From: Escherichia virus TH40
DNA length: 64,000 nt
Strand: one strand, 5' to 3'
Sequence record: MT446411.1
Shown here piece after piece: positions 2,039-58,855 of this stretch. Every line of letters starts with the position of its first letter. Positions within the stretch are counted from its first letter, which is position 1. The notes beneath the pieces are model-generated. The model worked only from the letters and a program-made list of their open reading frames with translations. It ran no database searches and had not been told where the DNA came from. Made by a program: the position numbers and the translations under genes.

Positions 2039-2242
2039 TTATTCCACCACATATGATAATGAGAAAATTGCTGATGAAAGATGAGTAGCATCTTCTTCAC
2101 ACAGTTCAAATGGAGCTTTCTGTAAGAGTTCAACCACTTCTTCATCAGTGGCACTGTCCATAAAGATTGCATAATCATTAAGATAGATAACAACCTCATC
2201 ACCAGTATTAACTGCATCAATCTTGATATTTTTAATTCTCAT
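2039..2242 (-). CDS. hypothetical small acidic protein
   Basis: 67-aa ORF preceded by GAGGAG SD and early-promoter cassette. Confidence 0.5.
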   Translation of the reverse strand: MRIKNIKIDAVNTGDEVVIYLNDYAIFMDSATDEEVVELLQKAPFELCEEDATHLSSAIFSLSYVVE

Positions 2243-2285
2243 TGTGTTCTCCTCAGTAGTTGATGGGATAATAGTACACCCTTTT
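2243..2285 (-). promoter_or_regulatory. early-promoter-like cassette (inverted repeat with -10-like element, then SD)
   Basis: minus-strand gggtgTACTATtatcccatcaactactGAGGAG upstream of ATG; member of repeated family. Confidence 0.4.
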
Positions 2286-2307
2286 TATGAGGATGTAAAC
2301 CCCTAAA

Positions 2308-2336
2308 TGAAAAAGGTCCACCCGAAGGCAGACCTT
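2308..2336 (-). terminator. putative intrinsic terminator (imperfect hairpin + T-run)
   Basis: ggtctgcc-ttcg-ggtggacc followed by tttttcattt on minus strand after stop of 2342..2725. Confidence 0.35.
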
Positions 2337-2341
2337 TTGAA

Positions 2342-3947: not shown

Positions 3948-4133
3948 TTATTCTGTAATACTTTCCAGATAATTTTCTAAATCGTCTGAAGCCTTATTAA
4001 GGGCTTCTAGCGCTTTATAATAGTCTTCACGGGAGTAATATTCTGTATGAAGTTCTTCGTCGTATTCGCTTTTAGCATCAACAACAGTTTCAATCATATC
4101 CAGAATTTTATTTTTCTGTTCTTTAGTAATCAT
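3948..4133 (-). CDS. hypothetical small acidic protein
   Basis: 61-aa ORF. Confidence 0.4.
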   Translation of the reverse strand: MITKEQKNKILDMIETVVDAKSEYDEELHTEYYSREDYYKALEALNKASDDLENYLESITE

Positions 4134-4141
4134 AATATACC

Positions 4142-4327
4142 TTAAAGAGTATTCACATAAGCAATTAATTCGTTTTCTTTCTCATCAAACCGATTAGCAA
4201 ATTCTTCCTGATGTTCGGCATCTATCGGGCCGTATCCATCATAAAAAGCGTTCGCTTCCGTATGCTCGTCCAAAAGCTCATGGATAAGCTCAAACAATCT
4301 ACTTTTCTGACTAATACTTAAACTCAT
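4142..4327 (-). CDS. hypothetical small acidic protein
   Basis: 61-aa ORF. Confidence 0.4.
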   Translation of the reverse strand: MSLSISQKSRLFELIHELLDEHTEANAFYDGYGPIDAEHQEEFANRFDEKENELIAYVNTL

Positions 4328-5890: not shown

Positions 5891-6349
5891 TTAGATATAA
5901 ATCACTTTTGTGCTAATTTTTCCTTCCAGACGATTAGAGTTAACAAACGCCATACGACAACACATGGTCGGAGACTTCCCAGGAAGAGCCGGGTTAACTG
6001 TCATTCCTAGCCATAAGTTCTTGTCTGTGATTTCCAGACGAAGTGGACGGTAGTTCACATTCGGGTCAATTTGTGCTTCAACTTCTGGAAGCGGTTCCAT
6101 TTTTAAGAATTCAACAATTTCTTTTACATGTGGTGTGATTTTTCCAAACAAGTCAAAAACATATTGTTCGTCAATTTCACGTTGGATTGCACGGTCCAAC
6201 AGGTGCGGACTGTACTTAATGAAGAATGCTTCAAGGCCTGCTTCTTTACAAGCCTTGTTGATAGCATTATTAATTTTGAGGAACTCCGTTTCAAAAATAC
6301 GACGAAGTTTATTGCGGCGAATGTAAACACTTGAATCGATAGTAGTCAT
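5891..6349 (-). CDS. regB: RegB endoribonuclease
   Basis: From ATG at 6349 (GGAG SD) the protein MTTIDSSVYIRRNKLRR...HLLDRAIQREIDE...RLEITD...CRMA closely matches T4 RegB. Confidence 0.8.
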   Translation of the reverse strand: MTTIDSSVYIRRNKLRRIFETEFLKINNAINKACKEAGLEAFFIKYSPHLLDRAIQREIDEQYVFDLFGKITPHVKEIVEFLKMEPLPEVEAQIDPNVNYRPLRLEITDKNLWLGMTVNPALPGKSPTMCCRMAFVNSNRLEGKISTKVIYI

Positions 6350-6392
6350 GATTATCTCCTTTTGTTTGATGGGATAATCATAACTCATTTCA
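6350..6392 (-). promoter_or_regulatory. early-promoter-like cassette
   Basis: minus-strand gagttatgattatcccatcaaacaaaaGGAGataatcATG; member of repeated family. Confidence 0.35.
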
Positions 6393-6405
6393 ACCTGCTT
6401 GTACA

Positions 6406-6711
6406 CTATTCTTTAAAACGAATTAGCTTATTTAATGACTGTGAGACTTCAGCACGAACAGCGTGTAAATTCTTAAGCTGTTCAAGGCGTTGCTCGTAGT
6501 AAGCAATTTCATCTTCTTCAAGACAGTCGTTTGAATCTTCTTTAAGATAGTTCCCGTAGTCCTGAAAGGCCTTACGAATAACTTCTTGGAAATCGTCTAG
6601 ACTTTGAATTTTTGGTTGTTTCGATGTGAATCCAAACGGATTGGAATCATTTATGCGGCGATGAGAAGCGGTTGATAACTCATAACCAAAACCAGAATTA
6701 ATCTGCGCCAT
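6406..6711 (-). CDS. hypothetical protein
   Basis: ATG at 6711 overlaps upstream stop (TAATG). Confidence 0.45.
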
Positions 6712-8500: not shown

Positions 8501-8815
8501 TCAAGCTTTAGGGAAATCGCGCAAAAATGCATCATAAAGTTTATTACCAATGCGACGAAATGCTTTTGCTGCATGAACGTTATCTGGGTTTGCAATTTTA
8601 ATCTGCATTACATGACTACCAGCCCATGATTTAGCTTCGTCATAATAACCTTTAATTTCTTTAATAGTCTTGCGTTTTCCACCAGGACCATCAACAGTAA
8701 TTTTCCACGAACCAGTGCTTGTTTCACTTGGTGGGGTTAACTGTTCAATCCAGACATAACCACCTTCAACACGTTGTTGAGTAGATTCAGTAATAAATTC
8801 TTGATAAGTTTTCAT
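8501..8815 (-). CDS. internal-protein-like head protein with CTS
   Basis: ATG at 8815 gives MKTYQEFITEST...; track start 8854 is an upstream extension. Confidence 0.7.
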   Translation of the reverse strand: MKTYQEFITESTQQRVEGGYVWIEQLTPPSETSTGSWKITVDGPGGKRKTIKEIKGYYDEAKSWAGSHVMQIKIANPDNVHAAKAFRRIGNKLYDAFLRDFPKA

Positions 8816-8863
8816 TTTATATTCCATTGTTTGGTTGATAAAATCATTATACAACCTTTTTAG

Positions 8864-9280
8864 TTAAGCGTACACAGCTTTCCCATAGTATTTGTACCAG
8901 GTAGGCTTTTGAGAAATTTTCTCATTCAGTCTGGCTTGACTGATTTCAATTGACCAGATTGATGGTTGATAATCATTCTTCCATTCATCAGGAATATCAT
9001 TTAAATCTTGGGTAGAAATATCTTTTATATTAAACCCTCGCTTTAAACATTCAGCAATAAGTTCTTGATGACGGTTTTTAAGGAACAAAAGCTTATCATA
9101 AAAGAAGGTGACATGACCAGTCCCTAAAAGAAAAGATGATGGGATTTTAAAGTCAGACACCTTTTTACCATTTTGTACATGCTTACGAACAGCACCAAAC
9201 ACGCGAGGAAGCTCACGATATTCAGCCATAAGGTGTTGGTCAGCAAGTTCAGATACCAGGGTTAAATTAATGCGAGTCAT
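8864..9280 (-). CDS. denV: endonuclease V (pyrimidine-dimer DNA glycosylase)
   Basis: 138 aa; [35 protein letters not shown]... near-identical to T4 DenV. Confidence 0.92.
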
Positions 9281-9322
9281 GTTTGTTCTCCGTAGTTGAT
9301 AGGGTCATTATAACCCTATCGT
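9281..9322 (-). promoter_or_regulatory. early-promoter-like cassette
   Basis: minus-strand gataGGGTTATAATGACCCtatcaactacGGAGaacaaacATG; TATAAT in loop of inverted repeat. Confidence 0.4.
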
Positions 9323-9335
9323 TTGGAGATGTAAA

Positions 9336-9824
9336 CTAATAAGCGTCAAAAGTTCCAGTACGGAAAGTTTCAATAACTCGTTTGGCCCGGTTCGGAGTCT
9401 GGACTTTATACCATCTTGAGTCCGCCAGTTCCTTAGCAGCAGCTTCCCATGATTTAGCCTTGAGCAATCGCATACCCTTAGGAAAACCAGCAACACCAGC
9501 TACACCCATTTGGAATACCATATTAATGAGTGCGCAACGACGAACTTCATCCAGTACATCATAAACAGGTTTTAAGACAGGATGTTTCAAGATTCCAGAT
9601 TTAGCTTTTTCGACCGAACGATTAAACAATGTTTCGGCTTCGTGCTGGGTTATACGGCCATTACAGACGCGACCCATGAGCTTATCGAGCTCGGCACGAG
9701 CAACATCTTTCGATGGGTTCTTAGTTATCAGTTGTCCGATACCAATGGTCCAATAACCTTCGGTATCTTTATACAAATCCAACTTACAACCTTCATCTAT
9801 GCGTAACATTTCGAATATATTCAT
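9336..9824 (-). CDS. e: lysozyme (endolysin, T4 e type)
   Basis: 162 aa; [12 protein letters not shown]...[13 protein letters not shown]...[15 protein letters not shown] matches T4 lysozyme including catalytic E11/D20/T26 context. Confidence 0.95.
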
Positions 9825-11116: not shown

Positions 11117-11796
11117 CCCTCCATAGGGAATTCCAGATATACTTGAGCATTAACGCGGATTTCATTGGTAATATTTTTAACACGGTCAGTGTTACGAGAT
11201 ACACGACCAAACCAGCGCCAACCGTTACTTACTGCACGAGAACCTGTATGCCATGTCTGCCAATCAAACTGGAGCAACGTGCGGTCAGGAGCATCCCACT
11301 TGGTTAATTCATTGGACTCAATTTTTTCCAGAACTTCTTTATGCCACTGGCGATAGATAAGTTCGCCTTCAGGAATCTGACTAAATTGTGCAGTTCCGGT
11401 TGCAAAATAAGTAGGGCACACATCAGCGTTAACAAGACCAAGAATATGTTCAGAATGGTAACGAGGATTATCATAATCAGGTTGCCCTGCAGTAATAAAG
11501 TGTTGACCAACCGGAATATCCGGGCGTGGTACATCGTCATGATGATAGCCAGGGATAGCTGGATACCAACCAGGCATCAACATATGAACCCGAGAATCAA
11601 ACACAACATGTTGATTAGTCCAATCAATTGGGAGATTGGCAATAAAGCTACGAGTGATTGGCCCGCCATTATCCCAAGCAAAACTCAAATCACAGTTAAA
11701 GAACATTGGTTCATTTTTGATTTGGTCATTTTGTACGTTATGTGCAAAACCACCTACTGCACGAGCTTGACTATTAAAAGTTTTAGGACCGTTCAT
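11110..11796 (-). CDS. hypothetical protein
   Basis: 228 aa; GAGGA SD before ATG 11796; no confident family assignment. Confidence 0.5.
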   Translation of the reverse strand: MNGPKTFNSQARAVGGFAHNVQNDQIKNEPMFFNCDLSFAWDNGGPITRSFIANLPIDWTNQHVVFDSRVHMLMPGWYPAIPGYHHDDVPRPDIPVGQHFITAGQPDYDNPRYHSEHILGLVNADVCPTYFATGTAQFSQIPEGELIYRQWHKEVLEKIESNELTKWDAPDRTLLQFDWQTWHTGSRAVSNGWRWFGRVSRNTDRVKNITNEIRVNAQVYLEFPMEGW

Positions 11797-11855
11797 AATA
11801 TTTTCCTCATTGATTGTGGGACCATTATGTCATAGCCCCATTTGGTTGTACACAC

Positions 11856-12815
11856 TTATTTTGAAAAAGGACGAATTAAATGTTGGTTAGCCTTGAAACG
11901 TTTAACATAGTCTTCGCGACCCAGGGTGTTGTACATATTCACTACTTCCTGGTAATGTTCCCAGGCATACTCACGAAACCATCCAGAAGTAATGGAGGTG
12001 CAGACTTTTTCCAGAGCAATATGGAAGCTCACGGATGGAGAGATACTAAACTCGTTAGGAACCTGCGAACGCTCCAGAGCGAGCACACATGCTTCTTCAT
12101 AAACCCCTGCCAGTTTAATAACATCAGGGAGTGCTTCAAATTTTTCACGCGAGGTCATGACTTCCGAATCATCCTTCATATAGAACTTATATGCAGGCTT
12201 ATCAGCAAGCGCCACGGCCTCGTGGATGGAGTCATGGTCAAGGGTATAGATTGTATCATTAAAGAAAGTTTTCTTGCCCACGTCTAGTTTAGGGTGGCTA
12301 TATGACAGTGTTTCTGCCTGACGTTGTAACATAATTTTCTGCAGTTCATCATTAAGAACAACACCCTTATTACGAAGGTAATTAATATGGCTCATGGTCT
12401 TCAGGAAGAATGGATTGTTCTTCAGGTAACGATGAGACAATTTAATTGCCAGACAAATATCAGGGGTCGCCCAATAGAAACCTGTAAGACGGTCTTTCTT
12501 AATATGATTTTCAGCGTATTTCAAGAGACGATAACTTGAGGTGAAATCTTCATCTTGAAGCTCACCAGTAATTTCTCGTACGTTGGTCAGGGCACGGACA
12601 ATATAAGCTTCAAAATAGGTTTCTTTGCCATTGTACATACATTTAAAAGCTTGGACATCAGGGTTATCCACAGGAACATGAGCACCGAACATACGTGCTT
12701 TAAAGTGGTTCCATGAGCCCTGGTCAGCGATGAAGTCCCAATCAGAGTTTTCAATTTTCTGACTTTCAATCAGACCAGCGTTATGTAATGCACGAGAACC
12801 AATAACTAACATCAT
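11856..12815 (-). CDS. hypothetical protein, possible nucleotidyltransferase-fold
   Basis: ATG pair at 12815/12812 with GAGGA SD; VIGSRALHNAG...SDWDFIA weakly resembles NTase h-G-S / D-x-D motifs. Confidence 0.45.
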   Translation of the reverse strand: MMLVIGSRALHNAGLIESQKIENSDWDFIADQGSWNHFKARMFGAHVPVDNPDVQAFKCMYNGKETYFEAYIVRALTNVREITGELQDEDFTSSYRLLKYAENHIKKDRLTGFYWATPDICLAIKLSHRYLKNNPFFLKTMSHINYLRNKGVVLNDELQKIMLQRQAETLSYSHPKLDVGKKTFFNDTIYTLDHDSIHEAVALADKPAYKFYMKDDSEVMTSREKFEALPDVIKLAGVYEEACVLALERSQVPNEFSISPSVSFHIALEKVCTSITSGWFREYAWEHYQEVVNMYNTLGREDYVKRFKANQHLIRPFSK

Positions 12816-12834: not shown

Positions 12835-13065
12835 TTAAATTTCAGCAGCAGAGATATTAGATTCATCTATCATCTCGGAGGCGGACCCCTTAACGATAGG
12901 AACCAATTTGCCATAGAGGTCTTCATTATAAGGGTCGTTGATACAGTGCGCATCTTCAAAACGAACACCGTAATCAGACTTCTTATAAACGAGACCGTAA
13001 ATCTTTGTAAACTTAGCGCGACTAATTTTTACGGGCTCATCAGCCATTGGAGCATAATACCACAT
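12835..13065 (-). CDS. hypothetical small protein
   Basis: 76-aa ORF. Confidence 0.4.
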   Translation of the reverse strand: MWYYAPMADEPVKISRAKFTKIYGLVYKKSDYGVRFEDAHCINDPYNEDLYGKLVPIVKGSASEMIDESNISAAEI

Positions 13066-13168
13066 AATATTTTCCTCATTAGTTGACGAGATAATGATAC
13101 TACGTTTCTTTAGGCTTGTACACTAAATTTCTGCGCATAAGTCCTCCTATCACATCCTTGTGATTAAA

Positions 13169-14762: not shown

Positions 14763-15108
14763 TACGAACCTCCTTAATAAATTCTTCGGCACATTTAATT
14801 TTGTGCTCTTCTTGTAGGGAAACACATTTTTGTTCCCACTCTTTAACTCGTCCACGATATCCTTTATTCATATGATTTTGATGCCACACATTTATCAATA
14901 TCATACACAAGACCGTAATAAAAGGAGCGGCGATTATTAGTGCCCAGGCAACTCCAACACTAATGATATCCATATCCCCACAAAGCACCATCATTATAAC
15001 CCCAACAATGCATATAGACAGAGCCCCAAATGGAGGCATAAGGTCTTTATCAATTTTGTCTGCGTATACAAATTTTTCTGGTTTACTTGGTAGATATAGC
15101 GTTCGCAT
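14749..15108 (-). CDS. hypothetical membrane protein, C-terminal F-I-K-E-V family
   Basis: ATG at 15108; TM helices; ends EEFIKEVRNGTA, where the F-I-K-E codons carry the downstream SD. Confidence 0.45.
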   Translation of the reverse strand: MRTLYLPSKPEKFVYADKIDKDLMPPFGALSICIVGVIMMVLCGDMDIISVGVAWALIIAAPFITVLCMILINVWHQNHMNKGYRGRVKEWEQKCVSLQEEHKIKCAEEFIKEVRNGTA

Positions 15109-15637
15109 TTTGAGCCCCTTTAGCATATTCACGACATTCAGTAATAAAACGATTAAGCTTCCGTTGTTGTTTACGACTCTCTGATGTGTATTCAGCCGCC
15201 AAATCAAGAAGTTCAGCTTTATCATAATTTTTAATATCAGCATAAGCTGGACGACGGTCAACCATTCCAAAGTGGTCACCATTTTCTAACATCAAATAAC
15301 ATACCAAATGGTCATCATCATCCGCATCAATAAGTCGTTTATAATCGCTTGGGTCGTTTAATGCATACACTGAATAACGTAGTCCAGCGAATTCCACTCG
15401 TTGGATACCCAGATTTACGTCAATAATTTCCAAGGCATCTGCAAAAGAAAGGTCTTCAGCTAAAGCAAAAATAAAAGGCAATTTTGTAGTATCACCACGG
15501 CTAGTTGTTCTTCTTAAGAAATCATTGGAATAACCTAGGTCACCACGGATTCTATAAAGAACTGTATTAGTTTCAGTGGCAAGACCACTACCGCCAAACC
15601 ATTCTACATTTGATATAAGATTATCGTATGAAGTCAT
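15083..15637 (-). CDS. hypothetical protein, C-terminal F-I-T-E-C family
   Basis: ATG at 15637 with GAGGAG SD; ...LNRFITECREYAKG. Confidence 0.5.
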   Translation of the reverse strand: MTSYDNLISNVEWFGGSGLATETNTVLYRIRGDLGYSNDFLRRTTSRGDTTKLPFIFALAEDLSFADALEIIDVNLGIQRVEFAGLRYSVYALNDPSDYKRLIDADDDDHLVCYLMLENGDHFGMVDRRPAYADIKNYDKAELLDLAAEYTSESRKQQRKLNRFITECREYAKGAQNANAISTK

Positions 15638-15655
15638 AATATTCTCCTCTCCCAA

Positions 15656-15680
15656 TTAAGGGGGCAAAGCCCCCTTTTAT
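15656..15680. terminator. GC hairpin with flanking A/T runs
   Basis: gggggc-aaa-gccccc then tttt on plus strand, between two minus-strand genes; orientation ambiguous. Confidence 0.35.
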
Positions 15681-15681
15681 C

Positions 15682-16275
15682 TTACTTAAGTGAATTGATG
15701 TATTCTTCAATGTCAGCGGATGTGGTATCCACACCGACCTGCGGGCCTTTGAAGGTTTCAACACGCATCAGAGTGTCTTCAATATCAATCTTAGTCAATG
15801 CAGCGATTTCAACAACATCATCTGCAGTCGCAATACCCAGGGCAGATACCTTACGAGTTTCGCGGATGTATTCCAGTTTAACAGCTAGTTCCTGACGAGA
15901 ATCATCCAGCTCTTTAACTTTCAATTTAATTTCATTACGCATTTCAACATAATCATCTGCCTTCTTACGAAGTTGTTTAGCAGTGCGACGATACAGAAGA
16001 CCCAGTTTAGCATGGACTTGCACATCTGCTCCATCAGCAATCAGTTTACGGATTTCACGCTCTTTTGAAGCAGCGAGCTGGTCTTTTTCATTCGCTAACT
16101 CGCGGATGCGTTTTTCTTCATTAACAGACTTAACGTGGGCAGTCTGGAGCTCAGTAATCTTGTCAATCAGGGTAGAAGCCGCTTTGGTATACTGGTCTTC
16201 AATAGACAGGTTTTGTGCCATTGCAGTACCCAGTTTGGAGCGGATGAATTCAACAAGTTTCTTTAAAGTATTCAT
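15682..16275 (-). CDS. hypothetical coiled-coil protein
   Basis: 197 aa rich in heptad-like charged repeats. Confidence 0.5.
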
Positions 16276-16351
16276 GGTATTTCCTTCAGTTGGTTAATGT
16301 TTTATTATCCAGGGAACATACTATCATGTTCCCGTTAAAGCGTACACTGAT

Positions 16352-16657
16352 TTAGATTTTATTTTCCTGCACACCATAATACAGTTCATCAGATACAATA
16401 TTCAGGATGTGGCGAACATATTCATCATGGTATTGACAGTCAAAATCAAATGCAACAGTAGTTTCCGCTTCACGAGTGAATTTAACTTGCACATTCAGGT
16501 GATTAGTAACGTGAGTTAATTTATCAGTAAAGAACTCTTTTGCTACCGCCTGCTGGACTTGCACTTTGAACTTGGTGTTGCGAATCATATTTTCAGCAGA
16601 TGCGAAATTACCAGTTTTATCAAAGTCAACAAGCGCCAGGTTGATGATGAATTTCAT
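16352..16657 (-). CDS. hypothetical protein
   Basis: 101-aa ORF with GGAG SD. Confidence 0.5.
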   Translation of the reverse strand: MKFIINLALVDFDKTGNFASAENMIRNTKFKVQVQQAVAKEFFTDKLTHVTNHLNVQVKFTREAETTVAFDFDCQYHDEYVRHILNIVSDELYYGVQENKI

Positions 16658-16737
16658 TTTATTCTCCAGTTTTATTTGGTAACTCAGTATGGAATCATTA
16701 TGCCTTAAAGCAGGGGGCTTGTATACCCCCTTTTGAA
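16658..16737 (-). promoter_or_regulatory. hairpin plus early-promoter cassette
   Basis: minus-strand aaaaGGGGGtatacaaGCCCCC...gcATAATgattccatactgagttaccaaataaaactGGAGaataaaATG. Confidence 0.4.
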
Positions 16738-17169
16738 TTAAATTTCAAATTCTTTGCGGAAGTTGGAAGCATAAGATTGAACTGATGCTTTGTTGAATCC
16801 AAACTCACGCACAATCATATCAATAACAGCTCTGCGAGCAGCACCATTAGACATATTAACAGTTTTGAACATATCATAGCATAAATCTTTGTTGCTCATA
16901 CCGGAGCGTTTAGGTGCCTTACGCTCAGCTTTTGGTTCAGCTTTAGGAGTAGGTTTAACCTGTCCATCATTCAGACCTTTAAAAATTTTACCCGCCAGAG
17001 TTGCCAGTTTAGCAGCTTCGCCACGAGTGATACCAAATACTGCCGGGTTAAATGAAATACCTTCAGCTGTTAAACGTTTGAAGAACATACGCGCTGCGGA
17101 TTGCGCTTCAGCTTCAGAAGAGTTGTTTAATGCCAGTTTAACGTACTTAATCAGTTTTGAAGTTTTCAT
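16738..17169 (-). CDS. hypothetical protein, paralog of 17253..17678
   Basis: ATG at 17169 (MKTSKLIKYVK...); shares AARRA(V/L)ID...VQSYASNFRK C-terminal block with neighbour. Confidence 0.5.
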   Translation of the reverse strand: MKTSKLIKYVKLALNNSSEAEAQSAARMFFKRLTAEGISFNPAVFGITRGEAAKLATLAGKIFKGLNDGQVKPTPKAEPKAERKAPKRSGMSNKDLCYDMFKTVNMSNGAARRAVIDMIVREFGFNKASVQSYASNFRKEFEI

Positions 17170-17240
17170 TTTATTATCCCGTTTGTTTATTTGGTAACTC
17201 AGTATGGGATAATTATACACTATCCCACCTGGAAGTAAAA
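17170..17240 (-). promoter_or_regulatory. early promoter cassette (-35 GTTTTAC, -10 TATAAT inside inverted repeat)
   Basis: minus-strand gtGTTTTACttccaggtGGGATAgtgTATAATTATCCCatactgagttaccaaataaacaaacGGGAtaataaaATG. Confidence 0.5.
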
Positions 17241-17252
17241 CACTTTTCTCAA

Positions 17253-17678
17253 TTATTTTTGAGCTTTGCGGAAGTTAGAAGCATAAGACTGAACAACAGT
17301 CTTTTTGATATCATGGGTAGTAACCAGAACATCAATCAGAGCGCGGCGAGCTGCATTATCATTCATATCAATTTCTGCAAATGCCTGGAAGCAAATGTCA
17401 CGGGCGTTACCAGATTTGGACTGGATTTTTTCTTCTTTAACTTCTTCAATTGGGAATTCAATCATTTCAGCTTGGATTAATTCAATGATGGACTCTTTTG
17501 ACTGTTTGGTGTTTACCTTCAGTTCAGAATTAAGGGACTTAGCGATGGCAACAATCTGGGTTGAAGTCAGATGGATAAGGGCATCTTCACGAATGCAGAT
17601 TTCACATACTTCGTCAGCAACCATTTTGTTAGTGATGCGGGTAACAGAAAATGCAGAGGTCAGGGTCAGAAAGTTCAT
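17253..17678 (-). CDS. hypothetical protein, paralog of 16738..17169
   Basis: 141 aa; C-terminal ...NAARRALIDVLV...VVQSYASNFRKAQK. Confidence 0.5.
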   Translation of the reverse strand: MNFLTLTSAFSVTRITNKMVADEVCEICIREDALIHLTSTQIVAIAKSLNSELKVNTKQSKESIIELIQAEMIEFPIEEVKEEKIQSKSGNARDICFQAFAEIDMNDNAARRALIDVLVTTHDIKKTVVQSYASNFRKAQK

Positions 17679-17745
17679 TTTATTTCTCCAAAGTTTTTGT
17701 GATTCAGTGTGTAACTCAGTATGGAATCATTATGCACCCGGTCAA
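17679..17745 (-). promoter_or_regulatory. early promoter cassette
   Basis: minus-strand GTGTACA, 17 nt spacer, CATAATgattccatactgagtta...GGAGaaataaaATG. Confidence 0.4.
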
Positions 17746-17805
17746 TTCGGATGTACACTACTTTTTGAAGAAATATTAAAAATAAACCCGCCGGAGCGGG
17801 TTTGA

Positions 17806-18360
17806 TTAGTTCTTATAAAAACGGAAGGGATTGATATGAAAGGCTAACATAGCTTTCGGGATAGGACGGGACAGAAGACTTTTTAGCTTCCAACCACAAT
17901 ACACGCGCAGATAAAAGGTGATTCCACCAACTTTAAGATAAGGTACGGAAGCGAACACGCCCCATGCATTATCATTCCACATCCAGAGCCAGCCATGGTG
18001 AGCTTTATCCGGGGAGCCCGATTCAACATCAGGATTACCTTTATAATGGAATTTAGAATCACAATCGCGGCCCAGCTTATGATAAGCAAAATTGTAGGCT
18101 TTGTTTCGCCAGAGCCAGGCCACTCGCTGGAAGTAAACGCCTAACGGCCATTTTCTGATTTTTTCCCAGCGTTTAACATGACCACGGTCGCCATCAATTG
18201 GGTTGTCGTATGTCATCATCCAGTCAAATCCAAACGGAAGCTTACCAGTCTTTTTGTTATGGAACGGCACTACAAATGGTGTAAGGATAACAGCCAGAAT
18301 CATGGAGATAAAATCCAGTGGCACTAACAGAATCCAGCTTAGATATTTTAAAAGTTTCAT
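17806..18360 (-). CDS. hypothetical protein with N-terminal transmembrane segment, late-promoter driven
   Basis: 184 aa; N-terminal ILLVPLDFISMILAVILTPFVV; TATAAATA about 27 nt upstream on minus strand. Confidence 0.55.
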   Translation of the reverse strand: MKLLKYLSWILLVPLDFISMILAVILTPFVVPFHNKKTGKLPFGFDWMMTYDNPIDGDRGHVKRWEKIRKWPLGVYFQRVAWLWRNKAYNFAYHKLGRDCDSKFHYKGNPDVESGSPDKAHHGWLWMWNDNAWGVFASVPYLKVGGITFYLRVYCGWKLKSLLSRPIPKAMLAFHINPFRFYKN

Positions 18361-18386
18361 AAATTTCCTTAGTTATGGGTACGTTA

Positions 18387-18394
18387 TATTTATA
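18387..18394 (-). promoter_or_regulatory. T4-type late promoter motif TATAAATA
   Basis: exact TATAAATA on minus strand (plus tatttata) immediately after terminator hairpin and before ATG 18360. Confidence 0.5.
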
Positions 18395-18396
18395 AA

Positions 18397-18425
18397 AAAG
18401 CCCCAACCTTTCGGAAGGGGCTATA
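18397..18425 (-). terminator. intrinsic terminator
   Basis: minus-strand GCCCCttccgaaaggttGGGGC followed by TTTTTT. Confidence 0.55.
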
Positions 18426-18459
18426 CCTTGTCGGGGTTCCACCTGCAAGGCAAGTGTTC

Positions 18460-18843
18460 TTATCCGCGGGCGAATGCCATTGCAGCGCGTTCGTTGGCAC
18501 GGTCAGTGATGTTCAAGAATTTATCACGAGCGATTTCGATTGGAGCGCCAACCCAGTCAGCGGCTCCATTACCTGGAGATTGTTTAGGACGAACCATATA
18601 AGTTGAAACTTTGGAACCAGCTAGTTTAGCACCAGGTGCAGCGGCATTCTTAACGTCTTTAGCTTTGATACCAAAACCAGTTACAATGCCCCAAGAAACA
18701 CCATTAACTGGTTTCTTGAACATAACACGGTCGCCAATTGAAACCCCAGCTTTTTCTGGAGCTACTAAAGAAAATTTACCGGCTTCAGTCAGTACGGATT
18801 CGGTGATGGTATTGCGATTTAAAAATTCTGCATATGTAAGCAT
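18460..18843 (-). CDS. candidate internal protein with degenerate CTS, late-promoter driven
   Basis: 127 aa; N-terminus MLTYAEFLNRNTITE resembles CTS MKTYQEFIAE and carries an I-T-E cleavage motif; TATAAATA upstream. Confidence 0.5.
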   Translation of the reverse strand: MLTYAEFLNRNTITESVLTEAGKFSLVAPEKAGVSIGDRVMFKKPVNGVSWGIVTGFGIKAKDVKNAAAPGAKLAGSKVSTYMVRPKQSPGNGAADWVGAPIEIARDKFLNITDRANERAAMAFARG

Positions 18844-18874
18844 TTTGTTTTTCCATTATTAGGGTTGTTGTTAA

Positions 18875-18882
18875 TATTTATA
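18875..18882 (-). promoter_or_regulatory. T4-type late promoter motif TATAAATA
   Basis: minus-strand ggaaTATAAATAttaac about 32 nt upstream of ATG 18843. Confidence 0.5.
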
Positions 18883-18892
18883 TTCCATAGTA

Positions 18893-18945
18893 CCGGATGC
18901 ACCACCCGCTCGGATTTCTCATACTACCGGGCGCACCGCCCGCTC
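18893..18945 (-). repeat. tandem direct repeat (two ~24-nt GC-rich units, each a short hairpin)
   Basis: plus taccggatgcaccacccgctcgg ... taccgggcgcaccgcccgctctgg separated by 11 nt. Confidence 0.6.
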
Positions 18946-19084
18946 TGGAAAAACTCCGTAAAAGGTGCGCCGTTTCAGCTGTGATATAAGGGGCCATTAA
19001 CAAAACATAAAGATTTATTAATGTCAGTCCTTAAACAGGGAACTTCAGTCCGACGACTTACCGGTAGCGACCCGGTTTCTTGTT

Positions 19085-19160
19085 TGGTCGAGACAGTAGG
19101 AATCGAACCTACGACCCAGGACTTAGAAGGTCCTTGCTCTTCCTTCTGAGCTATGCCTCG
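19085..19160 (-). tRNA. tRNA-Arg (anticodon UCU)
   Basis: 76-nt cloverleaf folded by hand: acceptor CGAGGCA/TGTCTCG, D-arm GCTC-AGAAGGAA-GAGC, anticodon stem AGGAC/GTCCT with loop CTTCTAA, T-arm GTAGG-TTCGATT-CCTAC, encoded CCA. Confidence 0.8.
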
Positions 19161-19293: not shown

Positions 19294-19367
19294 TGGTGGC
19301 CCTGGGTGGAATCGAACCACCATCCAGCGATTATGAGTCGCTCGCTTGACCGTCCAGCTACAGGGCC
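19294..19367 (-). tRNA. tRNA with CAU anticodon (Met, or Ile if lysidine-modified as in T4)
   Basis: 74-nt cloverleaf: acceptor GGCCCTG/CAGGGCC perfect 7 bp, anticodon stem AGCGA/TCGCT with loop CTCATAA, T-arm GGTGG-TTCGATT-CCACC, encoded CCA. Confidence 0.75.
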
Positions 19368-20300: not shown

Positions 20301-20486
20301 TTACTCACCTTTAGAGATTTTATCCATAACGAAAGAGATTGAACCAATTAAGAATGCAACTACTAAAGAGATTATATTCTCAGAAGTTGAAAGCATATTC
20401 AACATAAAGCCAGCAAACATGCTAAAACCAAAAGCGGTAACAGCAACAAGGGCAGTAACATTTCTAATTAATTCGCAACGTTTCAT
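20301..20486 (-). CDS. hypothetical small membrane protein
   Basis: 61 aa, two hydrophobic helices; GAGGAG SD and promoter cassette upstream. Confidence 0.5.
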   Translation of the reverse strand: MKRCELIRNVTALVAVTAFGFSMFAGFMLNMLSTSENIISLVVAFLIGSISFVMDKISKGE

Positions 20487-20530
20487 TTTATTCTCCTCAG
20501 TAGTTAATGGGATAATTATGCACTATCCCA
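20487..20530 (-). promoter_or_regulatory. early promoter cassette
   Basis: minus-strand GGGATAgtgCATAATTATCCCattaactactGAGGAGaataaaATG. Confidence 0.45.
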
Positions 20531-20543
20531 TTCAAAAGTACAC

Positions 20544-20777
20544 TTATTTTTTACGGAAAATTGATTTATACTGTTTAGCCCATTTCTCGATAACTTCTGC
20601 CGGACCCTGGATAACAAAATAGTCCCCAAACTCTTCACCGCCGAGCTGACCGTAATTATCTAAGGCGTCGCGGAGAGTTCCATAAGGCATTTCGCCCATT
20701 TTATCTTTCTTGCCGGTGTAAATGAATTGCACTTTAACATCAGCAGTTTCATTAATAAATTCTTGATAAGTTTTCAT
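20544..20777 (-). CDS. internal-protein-like small protein with CTS
   Basis: 77 aa; N-terminus MKTYQEFINE (CTS with I-N-E cleavage motif). Confidence 0.7.
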   Translation of the reverse strand: MKTYQEFINETADVKVQFIYTGKKDKMGEMPYGTLRDALDNYGQLGGEEFGDYFVIQGPAEVIEKWAKQYKSIFRKK

Positions 20778-20832
20778 GTTGTCTCCAGTAGTTGATGGGA
20801 TAATTATACTGCAGTTATCCCAGCGCGTATAC
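20778..20832 (-). promoter_or_regulatory. early promoter cassette
   Basis: minus-strand GTATAC...GGGATAactgcagTATAATTATCCCatcaactactGGAGAcaacATG. Confidence 0.45.
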
Positions 20833-21075
20833 TTATTTTAAGTCTTCCAGACGTTTTTTCATCTTGGTACCATTCTTAGCAATTTCGCCTGCATCAGAAC
20901 AAAGAGCAAGGAGAGCTTTAACTTTACCCTGGTCGCCTTTAAAAGATGATGCATCTACAGAATCAGCAAGTTCTTTGATGCGAGCAAACAGACGCTCTGC
21001 TTCAGCAAGGGCTTGACCAAGTTTAACTTCCATACCATGAGAAGATTCATTAATAAATGTTTGATAAGTTTTCAT
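20833..21075 (-). CDS. internal-protein-like small protein with CTS
   Basis: 80 aa; N-terminus MKTYQTFINE. Confidence 0.7.
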   Translation of the reverse strand: MKTYQTFINESSHGMEVKLGQALAEAERLFARIKELADSVDASSFKGDQGKVKALLALCSDAGEIAKNGTKMKKRLEDLK

Positions 21076-21364: not shown

Positions 21365-21697
21365 TTATTTATACAGTTTAGCTAGTTCTTTACGTCCGCG
21401 AGCAGACATAATGAATTGTTCATCACCAATTTTGAAATAAGCCATGCCGCCGTCAACAGCGATACCAATTTCTTTAGTACCTTCTTTACCTTTCCACTTG
21501 CCACCAGATTTTAGGACAGCTTCAACTGCAGCTTTGGAATATTTGGATGTTTGAAAACGTTCATTACCAATCTGAAAGAAAACACCATCTGCATTTTTGG
21601 ATAAACCAAATTTCAGAGAGCCTTCACTATCATCAATTGATTTAGTCTCATTGATGGCGGATTCGGCTAAAAACTCATTATAAGTCTTGATGTTCAT
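21365..21697 (-). CDS. internal-protein-like protein with CTS-like N-terminus
   Basis: ATG at 21697 with GGAG SD gives MNIKTYNEFLAES... Confidence 0.6.
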   Translation of the reverse strand: MNIKTYNEFLAESAINETKSIDDSEGSLKFGLSKNADGVFFQIGNERFQTSKYSKAAVEAVLKSGGKWKGKEGTKEIGIAVDGGMAYFKIGDEQFIMSARGRKELAKLYK

Positions 21698-21750
21698 TTT
21701 AACTCCGTTTGTTCGTTGGTGTAGGAACATAATACTGTGCCTACACTCAT
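21698..21750 (-). promoter_or_regulatory. early promoter cassette
   Basis: minus-strand GTGTAGGcacagTATTATgttCCTACACcaacgaacaaacGGAGttaaaATG. Confidence 0.4.
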
Positions 21751-21757
21751 TTGTACA

Positions 21758-22448
<691 letters not shown>

Positions 22449-54741: not shown

Positions 54742-55023
54742 TCATACCATACCATTTAAATGAACTTCTACCCGGCGCTTGATGAGGTCTCTGAAGTTAA
54801 CATTGTTTTCTTGAAGTTTCAACCAGTTACCATTTTTATCTTTAGTGTGAGTAGAATAATTACCATTCCACCAGAAATCAGTGTCATATGCTAAGTTTTC
54901 ATATTTTTTAACTAGTTTGTTCAGAGCATTACCATTAACACCATTTGGGTATTTGTTGACCAATGCAATAACTTCAATTTCCAATTTTTTAAAGGTGTTC
55001 AGAAGGAAAGTTGCTTTGTTCAT
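54742..55023 (-). CDS. hypothetical protein (accessory gene between 23 and 24)
   Basis: 93-aa ORF on opposite strand with its own early-type promoter and GGAG SD. Confidence 0.55.
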   Translation of the reverse strand: MNKATFLLNTFKKLEIEVIALVNKYPNGVNGNALNKLVKKYENLAYDTDFWWNGNYSTHTKDKNGNWLKLQENNVNFRDLIKRRVEVHLNGMV

Positions 55024-55090
55024 TTTTAAACTCCAGGTTTTGTTTGTTAACTCAGTATGGAATCATTATGTCTTATCTTAATCTGGTTGT
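55024..55090 (-). promoter_or_regulatory. early promoter cassette
   Basis: minus-strand GTTTACaaccagattaagataagaCATAATgattccatactgagttaacaaacaaaacctGGAGtttaaaaATG. Confidence 0.45.
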
Positions 55091-55100
55091 AAACAACTTT

Positions 55101-55108
55101 TATAAATA
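55101..55108 (+). promoter_or_regulatory. T4-type late promoter TATAAATA
   Basis: exact motif upstream of first gene 24 copy. Confidence 0.6.
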
Positions 55109-55134: not shown

Positions 55135-56415
55135 ATGGCAAAGATTAACAAATTACTGCGCGAGTCAACTATTACTACCAGCAACTCCTTGGGCCGCCCG
55201 AATCTTGTTGCTTTGACCCGCGCTACGACTAAATTGATTTACCGCGATATCATCGCTGAACAACGTACTAACCAACCTGTTGCTGCACTGTATGGTGTTA
55301 AATATCTTACTCCTGATAATGAATTCAGTTTCCAGACGGGCGCTACTTATGGAGGCGAAGTCGGTTCTAAAGACCGCACAACTATTCCAGAATTAACTAC
55401 AGCCACTCAGCCTGTGGCTAAAGGCGAATATGTAAAATACCAAAATATCGTTTACAAAGCTCTGGTTGATAATCCATTTGCATCGACCACAGAAACAGTG
55501 TTATCTGATGTTCTGCAAGAAGGTCTTATTGCATCGACTATTCGCCTTGTTCCTGATGCCGCACACACTGAAAAATTCGAAGCCGGTGATGTTGAAATTA
55601 GCAATGCTGTATTCCAGGTTAATAAATGGAATGCTCCGGTTAAAACACGTAAATTGAAAACTGCATTAACTGTTGAACTTGCTCAGGATATGGAAGCAAA
55701 TGGTTTTAACGCTCCTGCTTTCTTGGAAGACCTGCTTGCCACTATTATGGCAGATGAAATTAACAAAGATGTTCTTCAGTCTCTTATTACCGTTTCCAAG
55801 CGTTATAAAGTAACTGGCGTTTCTGACAATGGCACCATCGATTTAACATATGATGCAGCTCCAGAAGGCGCACGTAAACTGTATGAACTGGTTTGCGAAA
55901 TGAACTCCGAAATTCAGAAAACTACATCTTATTCCGGTACCTTTGTTGTTGCCTCTAGCCGTGTTGCTGCTATGTTGGCCGGTTCTGGTTGGTTGAAACA
56001 CAGACCAGAAGACGAACAGTGGCTCCCCGAAACAGCGTACGGTTATTTGATTAATGGCCTCCCTGTATTCTGTGATGTTAACAGTCCATTGGATTATGTA
56101 ACTGTTGGTGTTAAAGAAAATTACGGCGGAAACGAAGTCGTAGGCTCAATTTTCTATGCTCCTTATACCGAAGGCCTGGACTTGGATGATGAAGAGCACG
56201 TTGGTGCGTTTAAGGTCATTGTGGACCCAGACAGCTTGCAGCCATCTATCTCTCTGATGGTTCGTTACGCACTTTCAGCTAACCCGTACACCGTTGCTAA
56301 AGACGATAAAGAAGCTCGTATTATCGATGCAACCAATATGGATTTAATGGCCGGTCAGAGCAATATGTCTTATCTGCTCGGTGTTAAACTTCCGCCAATC
56401 ATTTATGAGGCGTAA
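55135..56415 (+). CDS. 24: capsid vertex protein gp24
   Basis: 426 aa; MAKINKLLRESTITTSNSLGRPNLVALTRATTKLIY close to T4 gp24. Confidence 0.92.
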   Translation: MAKINKLLRESTITTSNSLGRPNLVALTRATTKLIYRDIIAEQRTNQPVAALYGVKYLTPDNEFSFQTGATYGGEVGSKDRTTIPELTTATQPVAKGEYVKYQNIVYKALVDNPFASTTETVLSDVLQEGLIASTIRLVPDAAHTEKFEAGDVEISNAVFQVNKWNAPVKTRKLKTALTVELAQDMEANGFNAPAFLEDLLATIMADEINKDVLQSLITVSKRYKVTGVSDNGTIDLTYDAAPEGARKLYELVCEMNSEIQKTTSYSGTFVVASSRVAAMLAGSGWLKHRPEDEQWLPETAYGYLINGLPVFCDVNSPLDYVTVGVKENYGGNEVVGSIFYAPYTEGLDLDDEEHVGAFKVIVDPDSLQPSISLMVRYALSANPYTVAKDDKEARIIDATNMDLMAGQSNMSYLLGVKLPPIIYEA

Positions 56416-57699: not shown

Positions 57700-57719
57700 G
57701 GGCCTTGCGGCCCTTTTTT
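57700..57719. terminator. bidirectional intrinsic terminator
   Basis: gggcc-ttgc-ggccc with flanking T/A runs, between convergent gp24 paralog and rnlB. Confidence 0.65.
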
Positions 57720-58725: not shown

Positions 58726-58855
58726 AATCTCTCACTTTTGATGTTATAAATATCATTATAAATTAGACCCGCTATACTTTCTTTCTCTGAAAGGAATTAA
58801 TAGTCACAAAGGGTCTAGAACCATTATACCGCATTTTTATTTGAAGCAAAAAGGG

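What the first reader, a model, noticed from the sequence alone, without database searches (positions are those of the whole stretch)
16658..17745. Repeated early-promoter cassette with the -10 element embedded in an inverted repeat
At least twelve intergenic sites on the minus strand share a 40-60 bp module: a -35-like GT(T/A/G)TAC, about 17 nt, a (T/C)ATAAT -10 often sitting in the loop of a GGGATA...TATCCC inverted repeat, then a common leader (..ccatactgagtta.. or ..atcaactact..) and a GGAG/GAGGAG SD. Copies are at about 2243, 6350, 9281, 11797, 16658, 17170, 17679, 20487, 20778, 21698 and 55024, plus a weaker one near 13065. Some are preceded by a GC hairpin. They resemble the mobile promoter-early stem-loop cassettes proposed to drive modular shuffling in T4-type hyperplastic regions.
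Basis: partly seen in the sequence, partly recalled or inferred. Interest (0 to 1): 0.5.

Follow-up and report, generated by a model that had tools for sequence, protein, structure and literature searches.

The report
Early promoter cassettes of a T4-type phage
The repeated 60-90 bp modules are the early promoters of a T4-like (Gaprivervirus) phage, about half of them with a hairpin wrapped around the -10 box; this is a further example of the already described "PeSL" promoter/stem-loop cassettes, so it is real but ordinary.

Summary
All 12 listed sites exist, and I found two more (-35 at 8875 and 16347). A profile built from the copies scores 13 sites at 25-40 bits, and the next hit scores 11. 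All lie on the minus strand just upstream of an SD and ATG, 13 of 14 in the 22-kb early-gene arm.

The window is a Gaprivervirus (SP18/VR26-like, 91-95% identity). The consensus (A-tract, GT(G/T)TAC, 17-18 nt, (T/C)ATAAT, ATCCC, A) is the published T4-type early promoter consensus.

An inverted repeat spanning the -10 is real. 13 of 29 cassette families have a perfect stem of 6 bp or more, against 13.5% when arms are swapped between families (0 of 20,000 permutations). Other copies carry the hairpin around the -35, in the spacer or upstream, as in the PeSL subclasses of phages RB49/phi1.

"Mobile" is only partly supported. One clean cassette-to-cassette recombination lies inside the finding (cassette 17240 is a chimera). 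But 11 of 12 strong cassette families in the early arm are fixed in at least 10 of 11 relatives. Cassette junctions are not significantly richer in breakpoints than other gene junctions (p=0.35). No within-family test showed selection on the stems.

Verdict: new member of a known kind, low interest.

The parts
2240..2340 (-). Cassette 1. Terminator-like hairpin with T-run upstream. -35 GTTTAC 2300-2295, -10 TACTAT 2276-2271, leader ATCAACTACTGAGGAG, ATG 2242. Drives the 67-aa ORF 2039-2242 (MobD.5-like by position in relatives' annotation; PHROG 3024, unknown function).
   Evidence: (33.1 bits); present in 11/11 relatives
6347..6416 (-). Cassette 2, the regB promoter. -35 GTGTAC 6406-6401, -10 TATGAT 6382-6377, SD GGAG, ATG 6349. 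No hairpin.
   Evidence: (32.6 bits); downstream protein is an endoribonuclease, PHROG 1323, E 2.8e-72; 11/11 relatives
8813..8885 (-). Drives a 104-aa ORF that begins MKTYQEFI, the leader shared by the window's internal-protein genes.
   Evidence: (26.4 bits)
9278..9346 (-). Cassette 4, the denV promoter. -35 GTTTAC 9336-9331, -10 TATAAT 9312-9307 in the loop of GATAGGGTT/GACCCTATC, ATG 9280.
   Evidence: RNA -14.4 kcal/mol, z -3.9; endonuclease V. TH55 and TH44 carry a 287-nt insertion exactly at the -35.
11794..11863 (-). Cassette 5. -35 GTGTAC 11853-11848, -10 CATAAT 11829-11824 inside GGGGCTAT/ATGGTCCC (two G-T pairs), ATG 11796. Drives a 228-aa ORF.
   Evidence: z -2.7. Orthologues show C-G, U-G and U-A at one stem pair. 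Breakpoints at 11809, 11847, 11862 and 11874.
13063..13133 (-). Cassette 6. -35 GTGTAC 13123-13118, -10 TATCAT 13099-13094, ATG 13065. No hairpin. Drives a 76-aa ORF.
   Evidence: (30.3 bits). Present in only 4/11 relatives. Breakpoints at 13062-13164.
16273..16357 (-). Drives the e.6-like 197-aa ORF.
   Evidence: 11.2 bits, E 0.017; z -3.7. TH54 has a 448-nt insertion within it.
16655..16737 (-). Cassette 8. -35 GTATAC 16726-16721 in the loop of GGGGG..CCCCC, -10 CATAAT 16702-16697, long leader CCATACTGAGTTACC.., SD GGAGAATAAAA, ATG 16657. Drives a 101-aa ORF.
   Evidence: z -2.3
17167..17250 (-). Cassette 9. -35 TTTTAC 17240-17235, -10 TATAAT 17217-17212 in GGGATA..TATCCC, long leader, ATG 17169. 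It is a chimera of two cassettes that flank an extra 98-aa ORF in TH22, TH44, TH54 and TH57.
   Evidence: RNA -16.1 kcal/mol, z -3.5
17676..17803 (-). Cassette 10. Intrinsic-terminator-like hairpin at 17803-17784 followed by a T-run. -35 GTGTAC 17758-17753, -10 CATAAT 17734-17729, long leader, ATG 17678. Drives a 141-aa ORF that is a paralogue of ORF 16738-17169.
   Evidence: (40.1 bits)
20484..20553 (-). Cassette 11. -35 GTGTAC 20543-20538, -10 CATAAT 20520-20515 inside AATGGGATA/TATCCCATT, SD GAGGAGAATAAAA, ATG 20486. Drives a 61-aa ORF.
   Evidence: RNA -13.9 kcal/mol, z -4.1. Breakpoints at 20552 and 20557.
20775..20842 (-). Cassette 12. -35 GTATAC 20832-20827, -10 TATAAT 20808-20803 in GGGATAA..TTATCCC, ATG 20777. 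Drives an internal virion protein gene that begins MKTYQEFI.
   Evidence: Breakpoints at 20829 and 20839.
21695..21768 (-). Cassette 13. -35 GTGTAC 21758-21753, -10 TATTAT 21734-21729 in GTAGG..CCTAC, ATG 21697. Drives a 110-aa ORF.
   Evidence: z -4.0. TH44's orthologue has a 9-bp stem, GTAGGTGCA/TGCACCTAC.
55021..55104 (-). Cassette 14. -35 GTTTAC 55094-55089, -10 CATAAT 55070-55065, long leader, ATG 55023. Drives a 93-aa ORF lying antisense between late genes 23 and 24. No hairpin.
   Evidence: (31.6 bits)

Best explanation
These are the sigma-70-dependent early promoters of a T4-type phage of the genus Gaprivervirus. Each is fused to a short leader and a Shine-Dalgarno/ATG.

How each part most likely works:
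- Host RNA polymerase should fire from them straight after infection. The recognition elements are an A-tract acting as UP element, GT(G/T)TAC at about -36 to -31, (T/C)ATAAT at -12 to -7, a C-rich -5 to -1, and an A at +1.
- The GGAG / GGAGAATAAAA ribosome sites match the target of the phage's own RegB nuclease. The module would therefore also carry its own post-transcriptional shut-off.
- Ten of the 14 copies carry one hairpin, placed anywhere from upstream of the -35 to the start site. Seven of them span the -10.
- The -10-spanning stems reach into the start site, so they cannot form in the promoter's own transcript. The hairpin position also varies between copies. So the hairpin most likely acts on RNA that reads through from the upstream gene, as an attenuator, pause site or 3'-end stabiliser that insulates adjacent early units.
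- The cassettes are mostly fixed, vertically inherited sites. Copies share 20-50 nt of near-identical sequence, so they occasionally serve as substrates for ordinary homologous recombination, which adds or removes the small genes between them.

Shown here: the sequence anatomy, the non-random hairpins, the strand and region bias, conservation in relatives, and one cassette-to-cassette indel.

Inferred, not shown: promoter activity, RegB cleavage and the role of the hairpin.
For: Identity and context:
- The window is 91-95% identical to SP18, VR26, ECML-359 and TH22. The minus-strand arm 1-25078 is the T4 region mobD-tk-vs-regB-ip-denV-e-tRNA-57-1-3-2-4.

Promoter profile:
- 13 copies score 24.8-40.1 bits and the next hit 11.2; all are on the minus strand.
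- The column consensus is AAAA..GTnTACA..N..GTATAATnATCCCAT. It matches the published T4-type early consensus: GTTTAC at -36 to -31, A-rich -40 to -44, GT before -12, C at -3 to -1 (PMC1524935; PMC2988021).
- Each copy ends 19-44 nt after the predicted start at an SD and ATG.

Distribution:
- In the whole TH22 genome there are 36 hits, all on one strand, and only one lies in the late-gene block.
- Each of the 11 relatives has 12-15 copies in the syntenic arm.
- 9 window families are present in all 11 relatives.

Downstream genes:
- They include regB, denV and internal virion proteins; the rest have unknown function.
- The SDs of cassettes 16726 and 20543 equal the RegB strong-site consensus GGAGRAYARAA, and 17240 its GGAU form (against PMC3014915).

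Hairpins:
- 13/29 families have a perfect stem of at least 6 bp across the -10, against 13.5% with swapped arms (0 of 20,000 permutations reached it).
- The mean MFE z-score of the 29 families is -1.17, p=1.3e-4.
- The window hairpins fold at -8 to -16 kcal/mol as RNA.
- Stem sequences differ between families: GGGATA, ATAGGGT, GTAGG, GGGAACAT, GGGAGC, GGGGTC.

Recombination:
- TH22 carries an extra ORF flanked by two cassettes. Window positions 17167-17216 align to both flanks, so cassette 17240 is the recombinant.
Against: - There are no transcript data, so promoter activity is inferred from consensus only.
- The common -35, TGTACA, matches the sigma-70 consensus TTGACA at only 4 of 6 positions.
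- The -10-spanning hairpins are not followed by a T-run. They are therefore not canonical intrinsic terminators, and the insulator role is a guess.
- Within orthologous families the stem arms are not more conserved than the rest of the spacer: 28/117 against 14/96 variable sites, p=0.12, in the wrong direction.
- The one compensatory pair is not above shuffled controls (280/500).
- G-T against A-C mismatches run 29:17, p=0.10, which does not establish an RNA-level structure.
- Four copies (6406, 8875, 13123, 55094) have no convincing hairpin.
Confidence: 0.8

Rival explanations
1. The cassettes are truly mobile elements. The stem-loop would be recognised by a recombinase or a structure-specific nuclease (for example endonuclease VII on an extruded cruciform). 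Cassette plus ORF units would then excise as mini-circles and reinsert at other cassettes, which would make the cassettes the main engine of gene shuffling in this region.
For: - There is one exact cassette-to-cassette indel.
- Breakpoints fall inside the cassettes at 9336, 11853, 13123, 16347, 17240, 20543 and 20832.
- The same promoter-plus-leader precedes unrelated genes, including one between late genes 23 and 24.
- An exact 22-mer is dispersed 8 times per genome in three Gaprivervirus contigs.
- Mini-circles were reported for RB49/phi1 (PMC2839356).
Against: - 8/13 cassette junctions against 20/45 other junctions carry a breakpoint (odds ratio 2, p=0.35).
- Indels at non-cassette junctions are also flanked by short repeats of 11-30 nt. 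Ordinary short-homology recombination is therefore enough.
- 11 of the 12 strong cassette families in the early arm are present in at least 10 of 11 relatives.
- The crossover in cassette 17240 lies in the shared -10/leader segment, not specifically in the stem.
- Cassettes without hairpins (13123) are also breakpoints.
Confidence: 0.12
2. The inverted repeat around the -10 acts at the DNA level on the promoter itself. Two forms are possible. A supercoil-dependent cruciform could occlude the -10 or present it single-stranded. Or the repeat could be a palindromic operator for a dimeric phage protein that shuts early promoters off.
For: - The repeat is centred on the -10 in half of the families, far more often than chance.
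- How T4 early promoters are shut off is not fully understood (PMC3014915).
- From memory, not verified here: an engineered E. coli promoter with a repeat at the -10 is repressed by cruciform extrusion.
Against: - Stem sequences differ between families and loop lengths range from 4-5 to 13 nt. That argues against a sequence-specific operator.
- In other copies the hairpin sits around the -35, in the spacer or upstream, and 4 of 14 have none. A role in polymerase mechanics would predict a fixed position.
- The stems show no excess conservation within families.
Confidence: 0.1
3. The hairpins have no function of their own. The right arm (TATCCC) is promoter consensus. Matching left arms would arise and spread by templated quasi-palindrome correction, tandem duplication and gene conversion between cassettes.
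For: - Stem arms evolve no more slowly than the neighbouring spacer.
- Single-sided disruptions are common, for example 5 of 19 sequences in the 20832 family.
- Two of the three copies in the finding flank tandem paralogues.
- GGGATA/TATCCC is shared by several families, which fits copying between cassettes.
Against: - At least nine different stem sequences occur at the same position, each matched to its own right arm even where that arm departs from the consensus: ACCCTAT, GTTCCTAC, GCTCCC, GACCCC, ATGTTCCC.
- There is at most one hairpin per cassette, in 10 of 14 copies.
- The same architecture recurs in distant T4-type phages whose promoter sequences are unrelated (PMC2839356, PMC4122927).
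Confidence: 0.2

Closest known systems
PeSL (promoter-early stem-loop) cassettes of coliphages RB49 and phi1 (Arbiol et al. 2010, PMC2839356)
   Same: - A composite of an AT-rich tract, a sigma-70-type early promoter, a stem-loop, and an SD with the start codon.
- The stem-loop lies upstream of the -35, over the -35, in the spacer or over the -10.
- The cassettes are concentrated in hyperplastic regions in front of small ORFs of unknown function.
- There are dozens per genome (about 51-52 there; 36 profile hits in TH22 here).
- Indels arise by recombination between neighbouring cassettes.
   Different: - The promoter hexamers differ: near-perfect TTGACA/TATAAT in RB49, GT(G/T)TAC/(T/C)ATAAT here.
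- The stems here are GGGAT-type or varied rather than polyG/polyC.
- There is no sequence homology between the two sets.
- Most -10 hairpins here lack a T-run.
- Promoter activity, terminator activity and mini-circles were shown experimentally there and not here.
PeSLs of T4/PST and KVP40/nt-1 (Comeau et al. 2014, PMC4122927)
   Same: - The T4/PST promoter consensus TTTACW-N17-TAYWAT is close to the one here.
- The cassettes lie near indels between closely related genomes.
   Different: - In PST the stem-loops lie just upstream of the promoter. Here half of them span the -10.
- The dominant -35 here is GTGTAC, not GTTTAC.
T4-type early promoters (T4 consensus as cited in Nolan et al. 2006, PMC1524935; review by Hinton 2010, PMC2988021)
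   Same: - A-rich -40 to -44, G at -36, xTTAC-type -35, GT before the -10, TAnAAT, C-rich -3 to -1.
- All lie on the early-gene strand, in front of both conserved early genes (regB, denV) and novel ORFs.
   Different: - G replaces T at -34 in most copies.
- An extended shared leader is present, up to 23 identical bases after the -10 in one subfamily.
- Hairpins are frequent.
Variable internal-protein (IP) loci of T-even phages, with an early promoter, a stem-loop and a conserved leader (Repoila et al. 1994, as cited in PMC2839356)
   Same: - Cassettes 8875 and 20832, and more loosely 21758, precede genes that open with an MKTYQEF-type leader.
- Gene bodies are swapped between relatives while the promoter and the leader are kept.
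   Different: Only 3-4 of the 14 cassettes belong to IP genes.
Morons of lambdoid phages, and integron cassettes
   Same: Small accessory genes come with their own expression signals and are inserted between conserved genes.
   Different: - No integrase or attC-type site is involved.
- The repeated element here is the promoter itself.

Membership tests
T4-type early promoter | -35 element of the GTTTAC type at -36 to -31, and a sigma-70 -10 (TAnAAT) 17 +/- 1 nt after the TTTACA-equivalent hexamer | tested here: met
   14/14 copies: GT(G/T/A)TAC or TTTTAC, then 17-18 nt, then a -10 with A at position 2 and T at position 6.
T4-type early promoter | Additional consensus: A-rich tract at -40 to -44, GT before -12, C-rich -3 to -1 | tested here: met
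   Column consensus AAAA...GTnTACA...GTATAATnATCCCAT, compared with PMC1524935.
T4-type early promoter | Located 5' to early genes, in their orientation | tested here: met
   All 14 lie on the minus strand upstream of an SD and ATG. In TH22 36/36 hits are on one strand. Downstream genes include regB and denV.
T4-type early promoter | Transcription starts there immediately after infection, using unmodified host sigma-70 RNA polymerase | not testable with these tools
   Needs 5'-end mapping or in vitro transcription.
PeSL cassette | A stem-loop within or adjoining the promoter, in one of five positions | tested here: met
   10 of 14 window copies: seven across the -10, one around the -35, two upstream. 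Relatives add spacer hairpins. The excess over swapped arms and over shuffles is significant. Four copies lack a hairpin.
PeSL cassette | AT-rich upstream region, with the SD and start codon of the downstream gene at the 3' end | tested here: met
PeSL cassette | Preferential location in hyperplastic regions, next to ORFs of unknown function | tested here: met
   13/14 copies lie in the first 22 kb and one in the 39-kb late block. In TH22, 17 of 36 hits lie in the stretch 88.7-112.7 kb, which holds this early arm. 9 of the 14 downstream proteins fall in PHROGs of unknown function.
PeSL cassette | Cassettes act as crossover points for indels and replacements between close relatives | tested here: inconclusive
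   There is one clean case and several breakpoints inside cassettes. But there is no significant enrichment over other gene junctions: 8/13 against 20/45, p=0.35.
PeSL cassette | The stem-loop terminates or attenuates transcription; mini-circles form | not testable with these tools
   Only two upstream hairpins (2300, 17758) have a T-run. The -10 hairpins do not.
Known structured RNA family (Rfam) | Match to a curated covariance model at its gathering score | tested here: not met
   Only two tRNAs were found in 1-25100.

The most novel reading that the evidence does not exclude
The hairpin that encloses the -10 box and the start site would be a selected structural device in its own right. It could be a supercoil-sensitive cruciform that switches early promoters on or off. 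It could instead be a structure-specific target, for example for endonuclease VII, that makes early promoters programmed recombination hotspots. The excess of own-arm pairing over swapped arms does not exclude this. The within-family tests do not support it.
Probability: 0.1. Interest if true: 0.6.

Novelty: new member of a known kind. Interest (0 to 1): 0.2.

Why it matters
The work gives a clean map of the early transcription units of a Gaprivervirus hyperplastic region. It extends the PeSL architecture to another genus of T4-type phages; in the papers I could search I found no description of PeSLs for this genus.

It also adds two cautionary results. The cassettes are mostly stable, inherited promoters rather than frequent movers. 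And breakpoints between relatives sit at gene boundaries in general, not specifically at cassettes.

The -10-spanning hairpin remains unexplained and could be tested cheaply with reporters. None of this changes current understanding of T4-type gene expression or genome plasticity.

Tried and rejected
- **Generic sigma-70 scan:** 51 sites against 43.5 expected, so it does not discriminate. I replaced it with a specific profile.
- **Junction enrichment:** cassette against non-cassette gene junctions as breakpoints gave odds ratio 2, p=0.35. This gives no support for a special role.
- **Stem conservation within families:** stem-arm against non-arm spacer variability was 28/117 against 14/96, p=0.12, in the wrong direction.
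- **Covariation in the 11853 family:** the first attempt used the wrong register. The correct register gives 100% pairing and one double change, but 280/500 shuffles do as well.
- **Strand of the structure:** G-T against A-C mismatches, used to infer which strand or level the structure acts on, gave 29:17, p=0.10. The test is biased because the fold allowed G-T pairs.
- **Rfam:** only tRNAs.
- **Tandem 61-aa ORFs at 3948-4327:** suspected to be duplicates, but they show no similarity.
- **Repressor operator:** considered and set aside, because the stems vary in sequence and in loop length.
- **MITE or transposon:** considered and set aside. I noticed no terminal inverted repeats or target-site duplications, and the copies are fixed at orthologous sites.
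Full report
**What the window is**

Megablast of 16000-19000 and of 1-25000 finds only T4-type phages of the genus Gaprivervirus (SP18, VR26, ECML-359, the TH series) at 91-95% identity. No record is identical.

Annotated relatives show that the minus-strand arm 1-25078 is the T4 early region mobD-rI-tk-vs-regB-internal proteins-denV-e-nudE-e.x-tRNA-57B-57A-1-3-2-4. The plus-strand block from 25097 carries the late genes 53, 5-24. The finding therefore lies in one of the classical hyperplastic early regions.

- All twelve listed coordinates are the base before a minus-strand ATG that is preceded by the described module.
- A loose pattern (GTDTAY, 17-19 nt, NAYNAT) gives 22 matches, against 5.1 +/- 2.6 in dinucleotide shuffles. 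It also revealed a thirteenth copy at 8875.
- A profile HMM of 59 aligned columns recovers 13 sites at 24.8-40.1 bits, all on the minus strand. The next hits score 11.2 and 10.0 bits.
- The 11.2-bit hit is a fourteenth, weaker copy: GTGTAC at 16347, then 18 nt, then TAGTAT. Its -10 lies inside a perfect 8-bp inverted repeat.
- The 10-bit hit is a MotA-box middle promoter, not a member of this set.
- The generic sigma-70 scan does not discriminate: 51 found against 43.5 expected.

**What the module is**

The information-rich columns are an A-tract, GTnTACA, GT just before the -10, TATAAT, ATCCC and then A. This is the published consensus of T4-type early promoters: GTTTAC at -36 to -31, A-rich -40 to -44, GT-rich before -12, and C at -3 to -1 (PMC1524935). 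Hinton describes the same class as "UP/-35/TGn/-10" promoters (PMC2988021).

- Each copy is followed 19-44 nt after the predicted start by an SD and ATG.
- Downstream genes include regB, denV and internal virion proteins. Nine of the 14 have unknown function.
- In the complete genome of the relative TH22 the profile finds 36 sites. All are on one strand, only one is in the late-gene block, and 17 lie in the stretch 88.7-112.7 kb that holds this early arm.
- Several SDs equal the strong RegB cleavage consensus GGAG/U-RAYARAA: cassettes 16726 and 20543 exactly, and 17240 in its GGAU form (PMC3014915). regB itself sits behind cassette 6406.
- The module therefore probably encodes both early firing and RegB-mediated shut-off. 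That follows from known T4 biology and is not shown here.

**The inverted repeat**

- Seven of the 14 window copies have a stem that brackets the -10 and runs into the start site. One has the -35 in the loop of GGGGG..CCCCC. Two have a terminator-like hairpin with a T-run upstream. Four have nothing convincing.
- Folded as RNA, the window hairpins reach -8.2 to -16.1 kcal/mol, with z from -1.6 to -4.1.
- I collected cassettes from 11 relatives and from further IMG/VR pieces of three Gaprivervirus genomes. That gave 146 unique sequences in 29 families.
- 13 of the 29 families have a perfect stem of at least 6 bp across the -10. When left and right arms are swapped between families the figure is 13.5%, and 0 of 20,000 permutations reached the observed value.
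- With DNA parameters the mean MFE z-score is -1.17 (p=1.3e-4), and 11 families have z below -2.
- Stem sequences differ between families: GGGATA, ATAGGGT, GTAGG(TGCA), GGGACYAT, GGGAACAT, GGGAGC, GGGGTC. Each matches its own right arm. Other families put the hairpin in the spacer or over the -35.
- This is the set of stem-loop positions that defines the PeSL subclasses in RB49/phi1 (PMC2839356).

**Limits of the hairpin evidence**

- Within orthologous families the arms are not more conserved than the rest of the spacer.
- The single compensatory pair (C-G, U-G, U-A) is not above shuffled controls.
- The excess of G-T over A-C mismatches is not significant.
- The -10 stems reach the start site, so they cannot form in the promoter's own transcript.
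- They have no T-run, so they are not canonical terminators.
- Two facts make me favour a role on read-through RNA from the upstream gene (attenuation, pausing or 3'-end protection) over a role in polymerase-promoter mechanics. There is at most one hairpin per cassette, and its position varies between copies. This is inference only.

**Are the cassettes mobile?**

- Each of the 11 relatives carries 12-15 copies in the syntenic arm.
- Nine window families are present in all 11 relatives and two more in 10. Only cassette 13123 is patchy, at 4 of 11.
- I chained blastn alignments of 1-25100 against each relative, which gave 78 distinct breakpoint coordinates.
- 8 of 13 cassette-bearing gene junctions carry a breakpoint, against 20 of 45 other junctions (odds ratio 2, p=0.35). 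Rearrangements end at gene boundaries in general.
- Other indels are also flanked by 11-30-nt repeats.
- There is nevertheless one textbook case inside the finding. TH22, TH44, TH54 and TH57 have an extra 98-aa ORF (PHROG 27242) flanked by two cassettes.
- Window positions 17167-17216 align to both flanks. The window's cassette 17240 combines the upstream half of one cassette with the leader of the other.
- Breakpoints also fall within cassettes 9336, 11853, 13123, 16347, 20543 and 20832.
- The two genes between the three cassettes of the finding are paralogues, 46% identical over the C-terminal 65 residues. Tandem duplication therefore accounts for part of the local repetition.
- The -10/leader segment is far better conserved than those genes: 23 identical bases in three copies. 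An exact 22-mer occurs 8 times per genome in three Gaprivervirus contigs and nowhere else in IMG/VR.

**Comparison with what is known**

The elements work like, and meet the sequence-level criteria of, T4-type early promoters and PeSL cassettes (PMC2839356, PMC4122927).

- They are not homologous in sequence to the RB49 PeSLs.
- They differ from the T4/PST PeSLs in having G at -34, and in placing the stem across the -10 rather than upstream.
- The internal-protein genes, with a shared promoter and an MKTYQEFI leader, repeat the older T-even observation cited in PMC2839356.
- In the papers I could search I found no description of PeSLs for this genus.

**Verdict**

This is a new member of a known kind, and interest is low.

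Noticed in passing
window 58816-58843 (-): A T4-type middle promoter: MotA box TTTGCTTCA, then 12 nt, then TATAAT. It lies upstream of the 335-aa ORF 57718-58725, which is rnlB-like by size and position only. It suggests this phage uses MotA/AsiA sigma appropriation.
   Followed up: partly
window 54742-55104 (-): A 93-aa ORF (PHROG 6003, unknown function) with its own early cassette lies antisense between late genes 23 and 24. It is present in P8 (99.7%) and VR7, and partly in SP18. The sampled hits from other genera match only the end of gene 23.
   Followed up: partly
window 55135-56415 and 56416-57699 (+): Two tandem paralogues of the head vertex protein gp24, 55% identical over 428 residues.
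   Followed up: partly
window 3948-4133 (-): A 61-aa ORF that is absent from all 11 relatives compared (a 190-nt gap at 3950-4141). It is unrelated to its 61-aa neighbour at 4142-4327, and no cassette lies at either end.
   Followed up: partly
window 16738-17169 and 17253-17678 (-): Tandem paralogous genes of unknown function (PHROGs 18416 and 9997) that share a C-terminal domain ending ..VQSYASNFRK. One relative annotates them as 'H15' and 'rho-N' domain proteins.
   Followed up: partly
window 8501-8815, 20544-20777, 20833-21075, 21365-21697 (-): A set of small genes that open with MKTYQEF/MKTYQTF, or with MNIKTYNEF in 21365-21697. Two of them are in internal virion/head protein PHROGs. Relatives swap the gene bodies, with breakpoints 0-46 nt inside this shared leader.
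   Followed up: partly
window 16657-16675, 20486-20505, 17169-17187 (-): The ribosome-binding regions GGAGAATAAAA (twice) and GGATAATAAAA match the strong RegB cleavage consensus GGAG/U-RAYARAA. regB itself is at 5891-6349.
   Followed up: partly
window 23811: TH22 and TH55 carry a 658-nt insertion at this point, between the genes 3 and 2 homologues. It may be a homing endonuclease gene; I did not examine it.
   Followed up: no
window 19085-19160 and 19294-19367 (-): tRNA-Arg(TCT) and tRNA-Met(CAT). The tRNA block varies in content between relatives: SP18 has Arg, Asn and Met, and EAWsc9 has Arg and Ile2.
   Followed up: no
window 15657-15679: A GC-rich palindrome, AAGGGGGCAAAGCCCCCTT, with T-runs on both strands lies between ORF 15083-15655 and the e.6-like gene. 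It looks like a bidirectional terminator.
   Followed up: no
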